A DNA stretch of 32,631 nucleotides, from positions 1-32,631 of IMG/VR virus record IMGVR_UViG_2778261165_000019; one strand, given 5' to 3'. The position numbers are program-made. Positions 1 through 6,000 of the stretch are shown piece after piece. The DNA is from a virus. Taxonomy: Duplodnaviria; Heunggongvirae; Uroviricota; Caudoviricetes. Each line of letters begins with the position of its first letter. Positions within the stretch are counted from its first letter, which is position 1.

Positions 1-3000
1 ATGGCGGGTTATTTGTCCTGGTTATTCCCCCGTTGTAAAATCTCTCCTAAACTTAACGGTACGGCACCACACTTCGGGGATGAAATGTTCGCGCTGGTAC
101 TTTTTGTTTGCTACCTGGATGGCGGTTGTGAAGATATCGTTGTGGATGTCTACAACACGGAACAGCAGTGTCTTTATTCTATGAGCGATCAACGGATCCG
201 CCATGGCGGTTGTTTTCCGATTGAGGATTTTATAGATGGTTTCTGGCGACCTGCACAGGAGTATGGTGATTTTTAATTATTGCAATTGCACAAGAGTCAG
301 TTCGCCCCCAAAGACAGCACCTGTATCAATATAATGCAGGTTGCCAATATCCACGCGATGGCGCAACGGTGTATGACCAAACCAGAAATGATCAGCACCT
401 GTAATTCCCTGCCCTTTTTGGCGTTCACCTAATCGCGAGCGGCTCCACAAGACCTGATGCAAATCAACGTCCTTTTGCCATTCATAAACATCATCTGGAT
501 AATCGGCATGAGCAATAACATGTTTGCCGGTGCGACTATGTACTTCAAGAATAAAGGGCAAATGCTGACATTTTTCCAGCGCCGTTTTCGCTTGTTTCTG
601 TTGATTATCTGCCAGCGCAATAAACCAGTCGCCGCCATTCATCAACCACAAAGACATCTGCTGGGATGCCAGCGCATCCATCGCCATCTGTTCATGATTG
701 CCTCTTACCGCACAAACCCAATGTTGTTCCAGTAACTGCAGACAACGTAAACTTTGCGGCCCACGATCGATAACGTCTCCCACTGAGATAAGTAAATCTC
801 GCCACGGATCAAAACGACAATGCCATAATTTGCGGCGCAACTGCTCAAGACAACCGTGTATATCGCCAGAAAGCCAGATATGTCGCCATTGATGACCCGC
901 AATTCTCTGATAAACGGGCGCAGGCTGTTTCATCAATATTTTCCTCCCGCGCTAAAGATCACATAATCTTAACAAGAATGTTAAAAAACGCTGGACTCAG
1001 ACAGTAGAGTGTGTGTTATGGTTGACTATAAAGTCAGCGAAGGAAATGCTTCTGGCTTTTAACAGATAAAAAGAGACCGAACACGATTCCTGTTTTCGTC
1101 AACAAACAAGAAAATCATTTAAAATTAATGTGTTAAACAAAATCACGTTCATCTTTTAATCCCAAACACGTACCATTGCATATTAATACATTCAATTAGT
1201 TACCATTTTTTTCGAGTTTTTTAGAGAAATTTTCGGGACTATTTCAGGTCAATCCATGCAGACACAAGCAATCCCTGTATTGAATAATTCCGTAGCAATT
1301 ACGTAAAATCATCTCCGGCTGATTTTCATTCAAACTCGCGCTATCGAACGTCCATCAGCCAGCCGTGGCACGTTCTTGCATACGACGTGCTGCGGTTTCA
1401 TTTATCTCCGACCGGAAACTTCTTATACAAAGTCGATACGCCAACATCATAGATGATCGCCACCTTCTGGCGAGGAACTCCTGATGTAATTAATCGTCCG
1501 GCCTGTGCCCATTGTTCTGGTGAAAGTTTGGGACGGCGACCGCCAATTCGTCCCTGTGCGCGAGCAGCTTCCAGTCCAGCTTTTGTTCGTTCAACAATCA
1601 GTTCACGCTCCATTTCAGCCAGGGCACCCATCACATGGAAGAAAAAGCGCCCCATTGGGGTACTGGTATCAATTGAATCCGTCAGACTACGAAAGTTGAT
1701 GCCTCGTTCGCGCAACTCCTCCACCAGCACGACAAGATGCCGCATACTGCGCCCCAGTCGGTCCAGTTTCCAGACCACCAGCGTATCACCTGCCGATAAT
1801 GTCCTGAGCAGTTTTTTCAGTCCCGGCCTTTCGGACTTTGTACCGCTTATCTTGTCTTCAAAAATCAGCTCGCATCCTGCACAGTTCAGCGCATTACGTT
1901 GTAGATCTGTGTTCTGGTCATTTGTTGACACACGTACATAGCCAATAAGCATGGTAGCTCTCCCTGACAAAAGCAGGAATGATGCCATTTGCTCGTTATT
2001 TCTGTATTTTCATAAACGTTGGTTTGGGAGAAGCGGCGAAAAGGGATGTGGGTACAGGAGAAAATCAGATACCGGATATGTCAGCCTGGAAAAGAAATCC
2101 GAGTTCTAATCGCTGGAGAAAATTGCCTGATGGAACCATCATTCAAATGGGAATATCAGCATCAGGGCCATTAGGCTCACCTGTAAATATCACCCTGCCG
2201 ATATCTTTCAGCAATACCAATTATTGTGTTGTTGCATCGTACGATAATGCACGGTCAGGTGTGTCAACAATGGTTAGTTTTGCAGCATTACCTGTTTCAC
2301 CATCGCAATTTTCCCTGATGTCATCTGTGACTGAGCAAGGAGTAAATCCTTTTGCTTGCTGGATTGCTTTTGGAGATTGATAAATGGACAGATACTTCTA
2401 TTCACAAAAAGAAAATGGTTTTTTTACCGATTTAAATAAAGCACCTTCAGATGCTGTTGAGATAACCACGGATGAATGGCTGTCACTACTGGATGGTCAG
2501 GATAATGGCATGAAAATAGTCAGCAATCAGGAGGGATATCCGGTTTTGACAGAGCAACCACCTTTATCAAAAGAAAACCTTATTGCATTGGCAGAGTTGA
2601 AAAAAGGAAAACTTATTAATGAAGCCAACGAGCACATGAACAGCAGGCAATGGCCTGGTAAAGCGGCTATTGGTCGTCTGAAAGGTGAGGAACTGGCGCA
2701 ATATAATTTATGGCTGGATTATCTGGACGCACTGGAACTGGTTGATACCTCCAGTGCGCCAGATATTGAATGGCCTACGCCTCCGGCAGTTCAGGCCAGA
2801 TGACATCCGGCGCGGTGCTGGTATCTGTTGCCGTCACCGCGTCAATGTAATCCAGCACGGCGTTAAGTCGGGTTGTTTCTGCCTGCGTCAACTTCCGTCC
2901 GGCCTGTAATTTCAGCTGAATCAGACTAATGGAAGCCATTGCTGCATTAATCAGTGACTGGCGCTGTGCTTCTGCCGCGTCTAGTGCGGCGCTATGCTGT

Positions 3001-6000
3001 GCCTCGGTATCCGTCACCCATTTCTCACCATCCCATTTATCGTATGGCGTTAATGGGGCGATAGTGGTTGTATTTTCAGGGTAATCACCCGGAACTGTGA
3101 TTTCTTTGGTATCTCCCGTTTCGGTACTATAGACAACTTCACCGCGATGGTCTGGCACATATTCCCATGAATTTAAATCTACAGAGCGACAGATTGCATA
3201 ACCAGCTTTATGTGTACCTGGTGCATCCAGACAGGAACATGCCGGGATACCGACGCCGACAGCGAGATATTCAGTTGATGTAGAAATATATTCCCGCGTT
3301 TCGCCATCATAGTTATGTACGATGATTTCCCCATCATTTAAAGCGTAACCGTCTTTTCCCAAAATAGCCTGTTCCATTTATGCAGCCCTCACAATGTAGT
3401 TAAATGCAATGTTTCTCGGGCTACCATCACCGGCACCGGAACTAACATGGTTGGTTCTATCCATTCTTTTACTATCATTTGTTGTTCCGTGCCCATCCTT
3501 CCACGAATACAATAACCCACCGTCGCCAACGCTCAACTGTACGGAAAACACGGATGCAGGATTCTTCCCAACATCACTAGCCCAAAGGTTGTCGCCGGTC
3601 CAACCAGACATTTCATGGTTATGTTCAAGGATAGATGCTGTCTGACTTGAAAGCAGCAACCTCGCTGAATCAACACCTCGCCCATCATCCCACCCGCGAA
3701 TAAACTCACCGCGCAAATCCGGTAATTTTAACTTTGGGTAAGCCTTTGCCAGTTTTGGGTACTCTTCGGCAGAAAAAGGTGCACCGTTGCATTTCAGCCA
3801 GCCTGTTGGTGGTGTGGCTGAAGGCCACGGAACAGGCACACCAACAGGTAATGCAGAGCCTTCTCCCAAACCAAGGTTTTCGAGAGCTGTTTTCACCGTG
3901 CCATCCGATTTGATATCGACAAATGGATTTTTGCGGCTCAGGTATTCAACAGCAAACCCCGATCCCAGCAATTCAACAAAACCGGGCAGATCACCATTAT
4001 CAAGCACATCCCGTTGCGTTTTGTCACTTACAAACTGGGCCAGAGCTGCAGCAATAAAGCTGGCCTGTCGAATGGCTTTGTTCACCTGCGCACTGGATGC
4101 TTTCCCTGCTGTAAATCCGGATAAAAGCGCAGGCAACGCTTCCCATTCCTCCTGCGACATAACATTGGCATTTCGATCAGTTGCAAACGCTTTAAAGTCA
4201 TTTTTCGCCATCAGAGTAATACTCCCCATGCTCCTACATCAAAACCACTGATGAATTCGTTATCCATATCAAAACCAAAAAATTTTGAGCCTTCCGATGG
4301 GGTTTCCACCGAAGGAGTTTCAATGCCCCCCGCCCATACCCCGGCGGCTTTTACTGTGAGATACCCCTGTTTAATTGCCGCAATTAACTCACGCGATACA
4401 TCTGAAATATCAGTATCAGGAAAGACCCAGACCGATATCGTCATGTCCTGGTTATCGACTATCTGCATTCGCAGCCCGGATCCTGCTGTTGCCGCGTCAA
4501 GAATTGCCGGAAGCGAATCATTCCGTCCGTCCCAGTTATTAATCGCAATCTTCGCTTTAAGGATGACACGATAAGTTTCATCGCTGAGGTACATGTATCC
4601 GGAATCAGGATCGTATGGTCCCTGCCATACACCCTGATCATATCCAAGCCCGTCGGTATCCCAGCTGAAATAAACACCTGAGATAGGCTGGCTGACAACA
4701 CGGCTACGTCCGATCCACAATCCCAGAATGTCAAGTTGCACACCAACCGCAGAGTCAATATCAAATGCAGTAATCAGCCCTCTGGTGGCCGCCGCAACAT
4801 CAATAAGCGGCCGGGTCATCAGATCAACATGTGCAAGAAATTTAGGTTTGGTGGCGTGGTAGTTTGTGATTAGTTCGGTGTATTTGCTCATGACTCCACC
4901 GTTATAACGATATTTTCCGGGGTACAGGACGCAGATTCGTTGTATCTGATATCAATGTTTGATGACGACAAAGCCCCCGGGGATTTCCCAATCGTCAGTT
5001 CCTGAATATCGTAATGGCGTGCATTCCCGCCACTCACCACGCCAAGATTCGCCGGTGAGTAAATGCGACTTAAAAGGACCGAATCACCAATCATCAGACT
5101 ATTGATATAGTCGGAAATAGCCTGCTGGATCTGCTGCCCTATCTGTGAGGTATAACCCGTAAAAACTTTTAATTTAATCCGGGCATAAACAGGCACATCA
5201 CTGGAACGCGAGAATTTGATTACATGGGGATTGCCGTATTTATCCGGAACCGTAACGGATGTTGTACCGTGAGTGGCTGTCCCCTGGCCTTTATTCCCTC
5301 TGATAGCCTGAGCAATATCCATCACATCACCGCCATCCACAATTACAGCAACAGAGTGTGGCGGTAACCCGTTACCGTCCTCCGAACCAGTATCGTTTTC
5401 ATAGAGTTTGTGGCGGGTTACACCGGTAACATTAGAAACAGCACCATCCAGTGCTTCAAATGGGGTTATTGATGGCAACGCAACACTTTGCGACTGGCGG
5501 ATACGTAACTCCGCATCAGTTTCTGCCGGAGAGCCAACAGTAGCCGCAGCAGGATTAGTTACCGAAACCCAGCCACGGGTTGGCGTATTAATTTCAGTGA
5601 TAGTTCCAGCCAGCGCCGCCACTGCACCACTGACGGAACATGTTGCGGTCGCCATCACTGTACCATCCACGCCGACCACCACTGAAGCAGGCAAACGCCA
5701 TATCACACTATTACTGTCTTTCACGCTGCCATTAATGATGGTTGTTCCGGCAGTTCCTGTAAGAAGCAAATCAACCGTAGAATTCGTCGCGCCTTTACGT
5801 GAAATACCATTTATTTTCACGTTACTGGTCAGTGCGGCCCCATAGCCGGTTGCCGGTGAAAAACAGTTGTAGACAGTTATCGCAGTATTATTGGCATCAT
5901 GAATCGCCAGCGCCATCAGAGCCACCATCTGGCCGTCTTTACTATCCGGTTCGAGGTAGGCATCACTGCCATAAATCTGCTGAAAATAGCTAATCAGGGT

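What the first reader, a model, noticed from the sequence alone, without database searches (positions are those of the whole stretch)
1398..4229. Pin-type invertase with a ~1.85-kb invertible tail-fibre segment (host-range switch)
Imperfect 26-bp inverted repeats at 2007-2032 and 3861-3886 share a 14-bp core and lie in frame at the same GLGE codons of two alternative fibre C-terminal exons. Each exon is followed by its own assembly chaperone gene, and the invertase gene is adjacent. In this orientation the 283-aa fibre (3378-4229) is expressed; inversion would fuse the constant 123-aa N-terminus to the exon at ~2033-2380.
Basis: partly seen in the sequence, partly recalled or inferred. Interest (0 to 1): 0.55.

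Follow-up and report, generated by a model that had tools for sequence, protein, structure and literature searches.

The report
Pin invertase tail-fibre switch, confirmed
This is an ordinary, apparently working example of a classic phage trick: a small enzyme flips a 1.85-kb DNA piece so the prophage's tail fibre gets one of two alternative tips, probably changing which bacteria it can attach to.

Summary
The observation and the interpretation both hold. Window 1398-1952(-) encodes a 184-aa small serine recombinase that matches phage Mu Gin over its full length. Catalytic Ser9 is present.

Two 26-bp sites (2007-2032, 3861-3886) are the only such sites in the window, against 0.01 expected by chance. 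They lie in inverted orientation, share an identical 15-nt core with a central AA, and match the crossover repeats of the E. coli e14 P segment.

Between them are two unrelated fibre C-terminal exons (Collar type and gp53-like), each followed by its own Caudo_TAP chaperone gene. An in-silico flip gives an in-frame 238-aa fibre.

Two sister chicken isolates are 100% identical to the window here, apart from two shared IS insertions. They differ from each other only by inversion of window 2014-3879. Among complete E. coli genomes with this constant N-terminus, 54 carry the Collar junction and 12 the gp53-like junction.

The host element is a myovirus-type prophage, related to vB_EcoM-606R2 and Salmonella SEN34, integrated in the sdsR/ryeA locus. 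RefSeq already annotates the gene as pinE. This is a known kind of system, so interest is low.

The parts
1398..1952 (-). pin: 184-aa DNA invertase (small serine recombinase)
   Evidence: Pfam Resolvase 1.5e-51 and HTH_7 4.9e-14. Full-length match to Mu Gin 3UJ3, 312.7 bits, E 5e-93, with Ser9 and Met114 in the wild-type state. 93% nucleotide identity to e14 pinE. RefSeq names the identical gene pinE.
1868..1931 (-). Candidate recombinational enhancer inside the 5' end of pin: two G-N13-C Fis-type cores at pin nt 22-36 (window 1917-1931) and nt 71-85 (window 1868-1882)
   Evidence: The cores sit at the same positions in window pin, e14 pin and Mu gin. In core I, 4 of 5 third-codon positions are invariant in 48 unique homologues, and Asp12 is GAC in 59/59 while most other Asp codons are GAT. 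The centre of core I is about 96 bp from the centre of the proximal site, as in the Hin system (about 100 bp; PMC3798978). Inferred; Fis binding was not tested.
1953..2006 (.). Spacer between pin and the proximal site. It presumably holds the pin promoter and 5' UTR, and on the + strand the short leader of the silent ORF (ATG 1979).
   Evidence: 93% identical to the same region of e14. The leader MMPFARYFCIFINVGLGE keeps an in-frame ATG in all 19 variants seen. Sister strains carry an IS3 inserted at 1981-1983.
2007..2032 (-). Pin-proximal 26-bp crossover site (left inverted repeat)
   Evidence: The same sequence lies about 80 nt upstream of pin in most of 80 IMG/VR loci and in e14.
2020..3873 (.). 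Invertible segment, 1854 bp between the central dinucleotides of the two sites
   Evidence: Exactly this stretch (alignment limits 2014-3879) is inverted between strains Z1323CEC0004 and Z1323CEC0002, with 100% identical flanks.
2033..2380 (+). Alternative fibre C-terminal exon (115 aa, gp53-like), silent in this orientation; annotated in RefSeq as a 133-aa ORF starting at 1979
   Evidence: Pfam Gp53-like_C 4.9e-13. PHROG tail fibre / virion structural protein. Fused to the constant N-terminus in 12 complete genomes.
2384..2803 (+). Tail-fibre assembly chaperone (139 aa) for the gp53-like exon
   Evidence: Pfam Caudo_TAP 2.3e-26. Its C-terminal 65 aa are 38% identical to the other chaperone.
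2775..3377 (-). Tail-fibre assembly chaperone (200 aa, TfaE-like) for the Collar exon; its 3' end overlaps the convergent chaperone gene
   Evidence: Pfam Caudo_TAP 1.3e-31. 86% nucleotide identity to e14 tfaE.
3378..3860 (-). Fibre C-terminal exon used in this orientation (160 aa, tail Collar domain)
   Evidence: Pfam Collar 1.1e-14. No similarity to the other exon.
3861..3886 (+). Distal 26-bp crossover site (right inverted repeat), inside the fibre gene at the GLGE codons
   Evidence: Identical to the site in e14 stfP and to the modal distal site in IMG/VR loci.
3887..4229 (-). Constant N-terminal part of the fibre gene, outside the segment (start at 4229 or, more likely, 4211)
   Evidence: PHROG tail fibre N-terminal families. 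Always follows the DUF2612 and Baseplate_J genes.

Best explanation
This is a Gin/Cin/Pin/Hin-type (Din family) DNA inversion switch of the e14 P-segment type. It sits at the end of the late operon of a myovirus-type prophage.

Proposed mechanism, inferred by homology: Pin dimers bind the two 26-bp sites. With Fis bound to an enhancer in the first ~90 bp of pin, they form an invertasome. Each site is cut at its central AA and the halves are exchanged by subunit rotation, which inverts the 1854-bp segment.

The promoter, ribosome-binding site and first 117-123 codons of the fibre gene lie outside the segment. Each orientation therefore fuses the same baseplate-attachment N-terminus to one of two unrelated receptor-binding tips: the Collar type, as the window stands now, or the gp53-like type. 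The matching chaperone gene lands directly downstream. A lysogen population would then release two kinds of virion, presumably with different receptor or host specificity.

Shown here: all the parts, the in-frame fusion, and actual inversion in a 100% identical element. Inferred: Fis and enhancer dependence, cleavage at the central dinucleotide, and the host-range consequence.
For: - Invertase: Pin matches Mu Gin full length, with catalytic Ser9 present.
- Sites: there are only two in the window, inverted, with an identical 15-nt core and central AA. They are the same repeats (TTGGTTTGGGAGAAG / CCTTCTCCCAAACCAA) at which the e14 P segment was shown to invert experimentally (PMC12529663; PMC4272514).
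- Fusion: the in-silico flip gives an open 238-aa fibre.
- Cargo: Collar and Gp53-like_C exons, each with a Caudo_TAP chaperone; the exons are unrelated to each other.
- Inversion seen: sister strains Z1323CEC0004 and Z1323CEC0002 are 100% identical to the window and differ only by inversion of 2014-3879.
- Population: 54 genomes carry the Collar junction and 12 the gp53-like junction on this constant region.
- Family: the architecture recurs in about 60 of 80 IMG/VR pin loci, in both arrangements.
- Enhancer: candidate cores lie at conserved positions about 96 bp from the proximal site, with invariant synonymous positions.
- Context: a complete-looking myovirus structural module lies upstream.
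Against: - No sequencing reads or experiments exist for the strain this window comes from, so switching in this very cell line is inferred from identical DNA elsewhere.
- The sister strains also hold other pin-like loci (3 places per record), so the enzyme that flipped their segment could have acted in trans.
- Enhancer evidence is indirect. Synonymous diversity is only modestly lower in codons 1-50 (0.17-0.23, against 0.21-0.34 for later windows and 0.245 for the whole gene), and core II varies at third-codon positions.
- The receptors of the two tips are unknown.
- Whether the prophage is inducible is unknown, because the window ends inside it.
Confidence: 0.9

Rival explanations
1. The switch mainly serves the host rather than the phage. 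The pin-proximal ORF (leader at 1979-2032 plus whichever exon lies next to pin) would be expressed in the lysogen as a free receptor-binding fragment that blocks adsorption of other phages, as reported for StfE2 of e14. Inversion would toggle which phages are excluded.
For: - PMC12529663 reports that inversion of the homologous e14 P segment creates StfE2, the product of the pin-proximal ORF, and that it blocks T2 adsorption.
- The window has the same leader (MMPFARYFCIFINVGLGE; MMPFACYFFIFINVGLGE in e14). An in-frame ATG is kept in all 19 leader variants seen.
- RefSeq annotates the ORF.
Against: - The leader overlaps the pin promoter/5' UTR, so its conservation is confounded.
- No promoter-like site reading into 1979 on the + strand was found, and promoter hits overall were at chance level (7 found, 6.1 expected).
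- The exon next to pin here (gp53-like) differs from the one in StfE2.
- Unlike e14, this prophage has a full structural module, so the phage-side function is sufficient.
- This reading is compatible with the main explanation as an added function.
Confidence: 0.08
2. The locus is a frozen relic: it has the anatomy of an invertible segment but no longer inverts in this strain.
For: - Some relatives are decayed. pinE is frameshifted in strain 2011C-4251 and truncated in phages vB_EcoM-606R2 and 611R5.
- In the sister strains, IS elements disrupt the fibre gene.
Against: - In the window, pin is full length with Ser9, and both sites equal the modal functional sequences.
- An identical copy has inverted between sister strains.
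Confidence: 0.03
3. The two orientations seen in genomes arose by RecA-dependent homologous recombination between the repeats, or by assembly error, not by site-specific recombination.
For: Inverted repeats can recombine homologously, and assemblers can mis-orient repeat-bounded segments.
Against: - The identical run is only 15 nt. From general knowledge, that is below the roughly 20-30 bp that efficient RecA recombination needs.
- A dedicated invertase lies 55 nt from the proximal site.
- The breakpoints fall exactly in the sites in independent complete genomes and in IMG/VR contigs.
- The homologous e14 segment flips in a pin-dependent way (PMC12529663).
Confidence: 0.01

Closest known systems
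P segment / PinE of E. coli cryptic prophage e14
   Same: - pin is 93% identical in DNA and both crossover sites are the same.
- The layout is the same: site, exon, tfa, convergent tfa, exon, site, pin.
- The segment is about 1.8 kb (1797 bp in e14).
- The TfaE-like chaperone is 86% identical in DNA, and part of the Collar exon (window 3665-3879) aligns at 86%.
   Different: - The constant fibre part matches e14 for only about 80 nt beyond the site.
- The gp53-like exon and most of its chaperone are not those of e14.
- The carrier is a complete-looking myovirus prophage with DUF2612, Baseplate_J and a sheath, integrated in sdsR/ryeA. e14 is a defective lambdoid remnant in icd.
G segment / Gin of phage Mu (and C segment / Cin of P1)
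   Same: - The invertase aligns full length with Gin (312.7 bits).
- The logic is the same: a constant Sc region outside the segment, and variable Sv plus U or S'v plus U' inside.
- The site encodes a similar peptide (LGLGE here, LGLQE in Mu; sequence).
- Candidate enhancer cores sit at the same gene positions.
   Different: - The Mu segment is 3 kb with far longer fibres; here it is 1.85 kb with a 232-283-aa fibre.
- The site sequences differ (gix is TTCCTGTAAACCGAGGTTTTGGATAA).
- The phage backbone is different.
Hin / H segment of Salmonella
   Same: Same recombinase family. Both use 26-bp sites, with an enhancer about 100 bp from the proximal site inside the recombinase gene (PMC3798978).
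   Different: Hin flips a promoter for flagellin genes and lies inside its own segment. Here pin lies outside the segment, and the switch swaps coding exons.
Induced E. coli phages vB_EcoM-606R2 / 611R5 / 683R1 and Salmonella phage SEN34
   Same: The structural module is about 97% (E. coli phages) or 82% (SEN34) identical. The E. coli phages have the same fibre, two chaperones and an invertase at the genome end.
   Different: Their invertase gene is annotated as a truncated 315-nt ORF, and their variable exons differ from the window's (44% coverage).

Membership tests
Din family DNA invertases (Gin/Cin/Pin/Hin) | Small serine recombinase with an N-terminal catalytic domain (active-site Ser9/10) and a C-terminal helix-turn-helix | tested here: met
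   Pfam Resolvase plus HTH_7. 181-residue alignment to Gin with S9 present.
Din family DNA invertases (Gin/Cin/Pin/Hin) | Two 26-bp, partly dyad-symmetric crossover sites in inverted orientation with the same central dinucleotide | tested here: met
   21/26 identical, central AA in both, self-dyad matches 16 and 18 of 26. They are the only two sites in the window; 0.01 expected.
Din family DNA invertases (Gin/Cin/Pin/Hin) | Fis-dependent recombinational enhancer in the 5' part of the invertase gene, about 100 bp from the proximal site | tested here: inconclusive
   Two G-N13-C cores are conserved in position between pin, e14 pin and gin. Core I is invariant at synonymous positions. The spacing is about 96 bp. 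Synonymous diversity is only modestly reduced. Fis binding cannot be tested here.
Din family DNA invertases (Gin/Cin/Pin/Hin) | The segment actually inverts at the sites | tested here: met
   Sister strains differ only by inversion of 2014-3879. Both junction types occur in complete genomes, 54 and 12.
Din family DNA invertases (Gin/Cin/Pin/Hin) | Cross-complementation with Gin, Cin or Hin | not testable with these tools
   Needs genetics.
Phage invertible tail-fibre segments (Mu G, P1 C, e14 P) | A constant fibre N-terminus outside the segment, with two alternative C-terminal exons inside it, each with a downstream chaperone, convergently arranged | tested here: met
e14 P segment specifically | Same cargo genes (stfP/tfaP/tfaE/stfE) and the same prophage | tested here: not met
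   Only pin, the sites, the tfaE-like gene and part of one exon are homologous. The constant region, the second exon and the prophage backbone differ.
Shufflons (Rci tyrosine recombinase) and multi-site inversion systems (Min of p15B type) | A tyrosine recombinase, and/or three or more crossover sites giving several segments | tested here: not met
   The recombinase is serine type and the window has only two sites. Some IMG/VR relatives do have three sites (L069, L078).

The most novel reading that the evidence does not exclude
The promoter-distal, pin-proximal ORF (1979-2380 now; leader plus Collar exon after inversion) may not be silent. It could be made in the lysogen, with its short hydrophobic leader, and act as a free receptor-binding fragment that blocks adsorption of competing phages, as claimed for StfE2 of e14. 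The same flip would then toggle both the virion's host range and the lysogen's exclusion spectrum.
Probability: 0.08. Interest if true: 0.5.

Novelty: already known. Interest (0 to 1): 0.15.

Why it matters
The result has practical value only. It marks this prophage's fibre gene as a two-state locus. Genome comparisons, assemblies and host-range predictions for this prophage family should therefore expect either orientation, and should not score the difference as a structural variant.

It also gives a clean natural example: two near-clonal isolates with opposite orientations. It shows the e14-type pin cassette grafted, with only about 80 nt of shared constant sequence, onto an unrelated myovirus fibre. 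That illustrates how modular these cassettes are. It does not open a new question.

Tried and rejected
- Rfam on the whole window found no RNA family in 1398-4229.
- The promoter/terminator consensus scan of 900-4900 was at chance level (7 found, 6.1 expected) and gave no support for a + strand promoter into the silent ORF.
- Sliding synonymous diversity along pin gave only a modest dip over the putative enhancer. The per-position test was more informative.
- Attempts to read Plasterk & van de Putte 1985 (PMC554175) and Mehta et al. 2004 (PMC331406) failed because they are not held. The published consensus for hix/gix/cix/pix sites and the exact Fis sites could therefore not be quoted. The positional match to the hin Fis sites rests on my own recollection and is marked as such.
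- Section 4 of the Gin structure paper (methods) added nothing.
- A shufflon or multi-inversion reading was rejected: there are two sites only, and the recombinase is serine type.
- Homologous recombination and assembly artefact were rejected: the identity run is 15 nt, and the breakpoints are exact in independent genomes.
- A literature search for SEN34 plus invertase returned nothing relevant.
- PADLOC and Pfam on neighbouring small genes gave only a weak HEPN hint.
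Full report
**Observation.** ORFs and Pfam hits:
- 1398-1952(-): Resolvase plus HTH_7.
- 1979/2033-2380(+): Gp53-like_C.
- 2384-2803(+): Caudo_TAP.
- 2775-3377(-): Caudo_TAP.
- 3378-4229(-): tail Collar domain.
- Further upstream on the minus strand: DUF2612, Baseplate_J and a spike protein.

The best inverted repeat in 1300-4400 is 2014-2033 / 3860-3879, at 95% complementarity. Written as 26-mers, the two sites match at 21 of 26 positions. They share TTCTCCCAAACCAA plus one more interior base, and both have AA at the centre. A 19-nt core pattern with up to three mismatches finds only these two sites in the 32.6-kb window, in opposite orientation; 0.01 are expected by chance.

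Flipping 2020-3873 in silico keeps the fibre frame open. It replaces ...ENLGLGE-GSALPVG... (283 aa) with ...ENLGLGE-AAKRDVG... (238 aa).

There are two small corrections. By alignment with Gin, pin starts at ATG 1952 (MLIGYVRVST). The fibre more probably starts at ATG 4211, which overlaps the stop codon of the DUF2612 gene and is the start RefSeq uses in two of three relatives.

**What it is.** The recombinase aligns over 181 residues with phage Mu Gin (3UJ3, 312.7 bits). The catalytic serine is present, and Met114 is in the wild-type, not the Fis-independent, state. At the DNA level, pin and the adjacent site are 93% identical to pinE of the K-12 cryptic prophage e14. Both crossover sites equal those of e14.

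These are the repeats at which the e14 P segment inverts experimentally: TTGGTTTGGGAGAAGG / CCTTCTCCCAAACCAA, 1797 bp (PMC12529663). Both genotypes coexist in K-12 cultures (PMC4272514).

The layout is that of the Mu G segment: a constant part outside the segment, two exon-plus-chaperone pairs arranged convergently inside it, and the invertase just beyond. The two exons are unrelated to each other. The two chaperones share only their C-terminal 65 residues.

**Does it invert?** I built the flipped junction and searched all complete E. coli genomes. Twelve genomes carry it at 97-100% identity over its full length.

The closest relatives of the window are two chicken isolates from one study:
- Z1323CEC0004 has the window's orientation.
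- Z1323CEC0002 has the flipped one.

Local BLAST shows both are 100% identical to the window. The exceptions are an IS3 inserted at 1981-1983 and an IS10-like element inserted at 4210-4218, and both strains share both insertions. The two strains differ from each other only by inversion of window 2014-3879.

The exchange therefore lies within the 15-nt identical core that contains the central dinucleotide. It took place in a lineage whose element is the same as the window's. Short junction queries give 54 genomes with the Collar exon joined to this constant region and 12 with the gp53-like exon joined.

**Family context.** A scan of IMG/VR with Pin returned 80 loci at 86-99% protein identity.
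- In about 60 of them, a site of the form TTCTCCCAAACCAACGTTTATGAAAA lies 80 nt upstream of pin, with an inverted partner 1.5-3.5 kb away.
- tblastn shows the exon, chaperone, chaperone, exon order in both arrangements. Exons are freely recombined between loci, and the cassette is attached to several different constant regions.

**Enhancer.** Two G-N13-C cores lie at pin nt 22-36 and 71-85, at the same positions in window pin, e14 pin and Mu gin. In core I, four of five third-codon positions are invariant across 48 unique sequences. Asp12 is GAC in 59 of 59, whereas most other Asp codons prefer GAT. The centre of core I is about 96 bp from the centre of the proximal site, matching the roughly 100 bp of the Hin system (PMC3798978).

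Window-averaged synonymous diversity is only modestly lower over codons 1-50. I treat the enhancer as probable but not shown. The correspondence to the published hin Fis sites rests on my recollection of that sequence.

**Carrier.** The rest of the window encodes a baseplate hub, tape measure, sheath, major head protein, portal and terminase. An antiterminator-Q/Ea22-type early region follows. The structural module is about 97% identical to the induced E. coli phages vB_EcoM-606R2, 611R5 and 683R1, and 82% identical to Salmonella phage SEN34. The E. coli phages have the same fibre cassette, with a truncated invertase gene. Homology to the K-12 chromosome ends at window 1098, inside sdsR/ryeA. 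The prophage therefore sits in that small-RNA locus, with pin about 300 bp from the junction.

**Mechanism and rivals.** The best explanation (confidence 0.9) is a Pin-catalysed, probably Fis/enhancer-assisted, inversion. It swaps the receptor-binding tip of the fibre together with its chaperone.
- Shown: the parts, the in-frame fusion, and inversion in identical DNA.
- Inferred: Fis dependence, cleavage at the central AA, and the host-range effect.

Three rivals were considered:
- A host-side role for the pin-proximal ORF, as claimed for e14 StfE2 (PMC12529663). The in-frame ATG of the leader is kept in all 19 variants. However, the region doubles as the pin promoter, and no promoter signal was found. 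Confidence about 0.08, as an added function.
- A frozen relic (0.03).
- RecA recombination or assembly artefact (0.01).

**Novelty.** RefSeq annotates identical genes as pinE, phage tail protein and tail fiber assembly protein. The mechanism has been known since the 1980s. This is an already known kind of element, confirmed and apparently active, and interest is low.

Noticed in passing
window 1-1098 versus 1099 onward: Homology to the K-12 chromosome (yebW, pphA and the intergenic region) ends at window 1098. That point lies inside the sdsR/ryeA small-RNA locus of K-12, about 31 nt from the 3' end of sdsR. The prophage is therefore integrated in that locus, and pin lies only about 300 bp from the junction.
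   Followed up: partly
window 1981-1983 and 4210-4218 (L001 3727-4940 and 7246-8454): The two closest genomes (Z1323CEC0004 and Z1323CEC0002) carry an IS3-family element between pin and the proximal site, with a 3-bp duplication. They also carry an IS10-like ISVsa5 at the fibre start codon, with a 9-bp duplication. The window lacks both. The segment still differs in orientation between these two strains, so inversion went on with the proximal site moved about 1.3 kb from pin and with the fibre gene disrupted.
   Followed up: yes
window 7257-7685(-) and 7685-8416(-): Two ORFs (142 and 243 aa) sit between the spike gene and the other baseplate genes. Neither has a Pfam hit, and their PHROG families have no known function. 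The first has a weak HEPN_IX PADLOC hit (E 0.009). Related prophages (L002, L004) carry different small genes at this position, so it looks like a variable moron slot.
   Followed up: partly
window 27192-27388(-) and 29560-29734(-): Rfam finds a C4 antisense RNA with its a1/b1 targets, an isrK RNA, and a sok antitoxin RNA (implying a hok/sok-type toxin locus). All lie in the prophage's early/regulatory region.
   Followed up: no
L022 (1932, 2953), L069 (26, 1971, 4119), L078 (1880, 3263, 4148): Some IMG/VR relatives have two sites in direct orientation (L022) or three sites (L069, L078). This would allow deletion or multiple alternative inversions rather than a simple two-state switch.
   Followed up: no
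window 1979-2032(+): The short hydrophobic leader (MMPFARYFCIFINVGLGE) runs from the pin upstream region into the proximal site. It keeps an in-frame ATG and no stop in all 19 sequence variants across about 68 loci. Mu has an analogous in-frame ATG. Conservation is confounded by the pin promoter, but this is the counterpart of the e14 StfE2 leader.
   Followed up: partly
L004 1914-2467 (strain 2011C-4251): In this genome, which holds the flipped (gp53-like) junction at 99.1% identity, pinE is annotated as frameshifted. Its segment may be locked. I did not check whether the other genomes with this junction share the frameshift.
   Followed up: no
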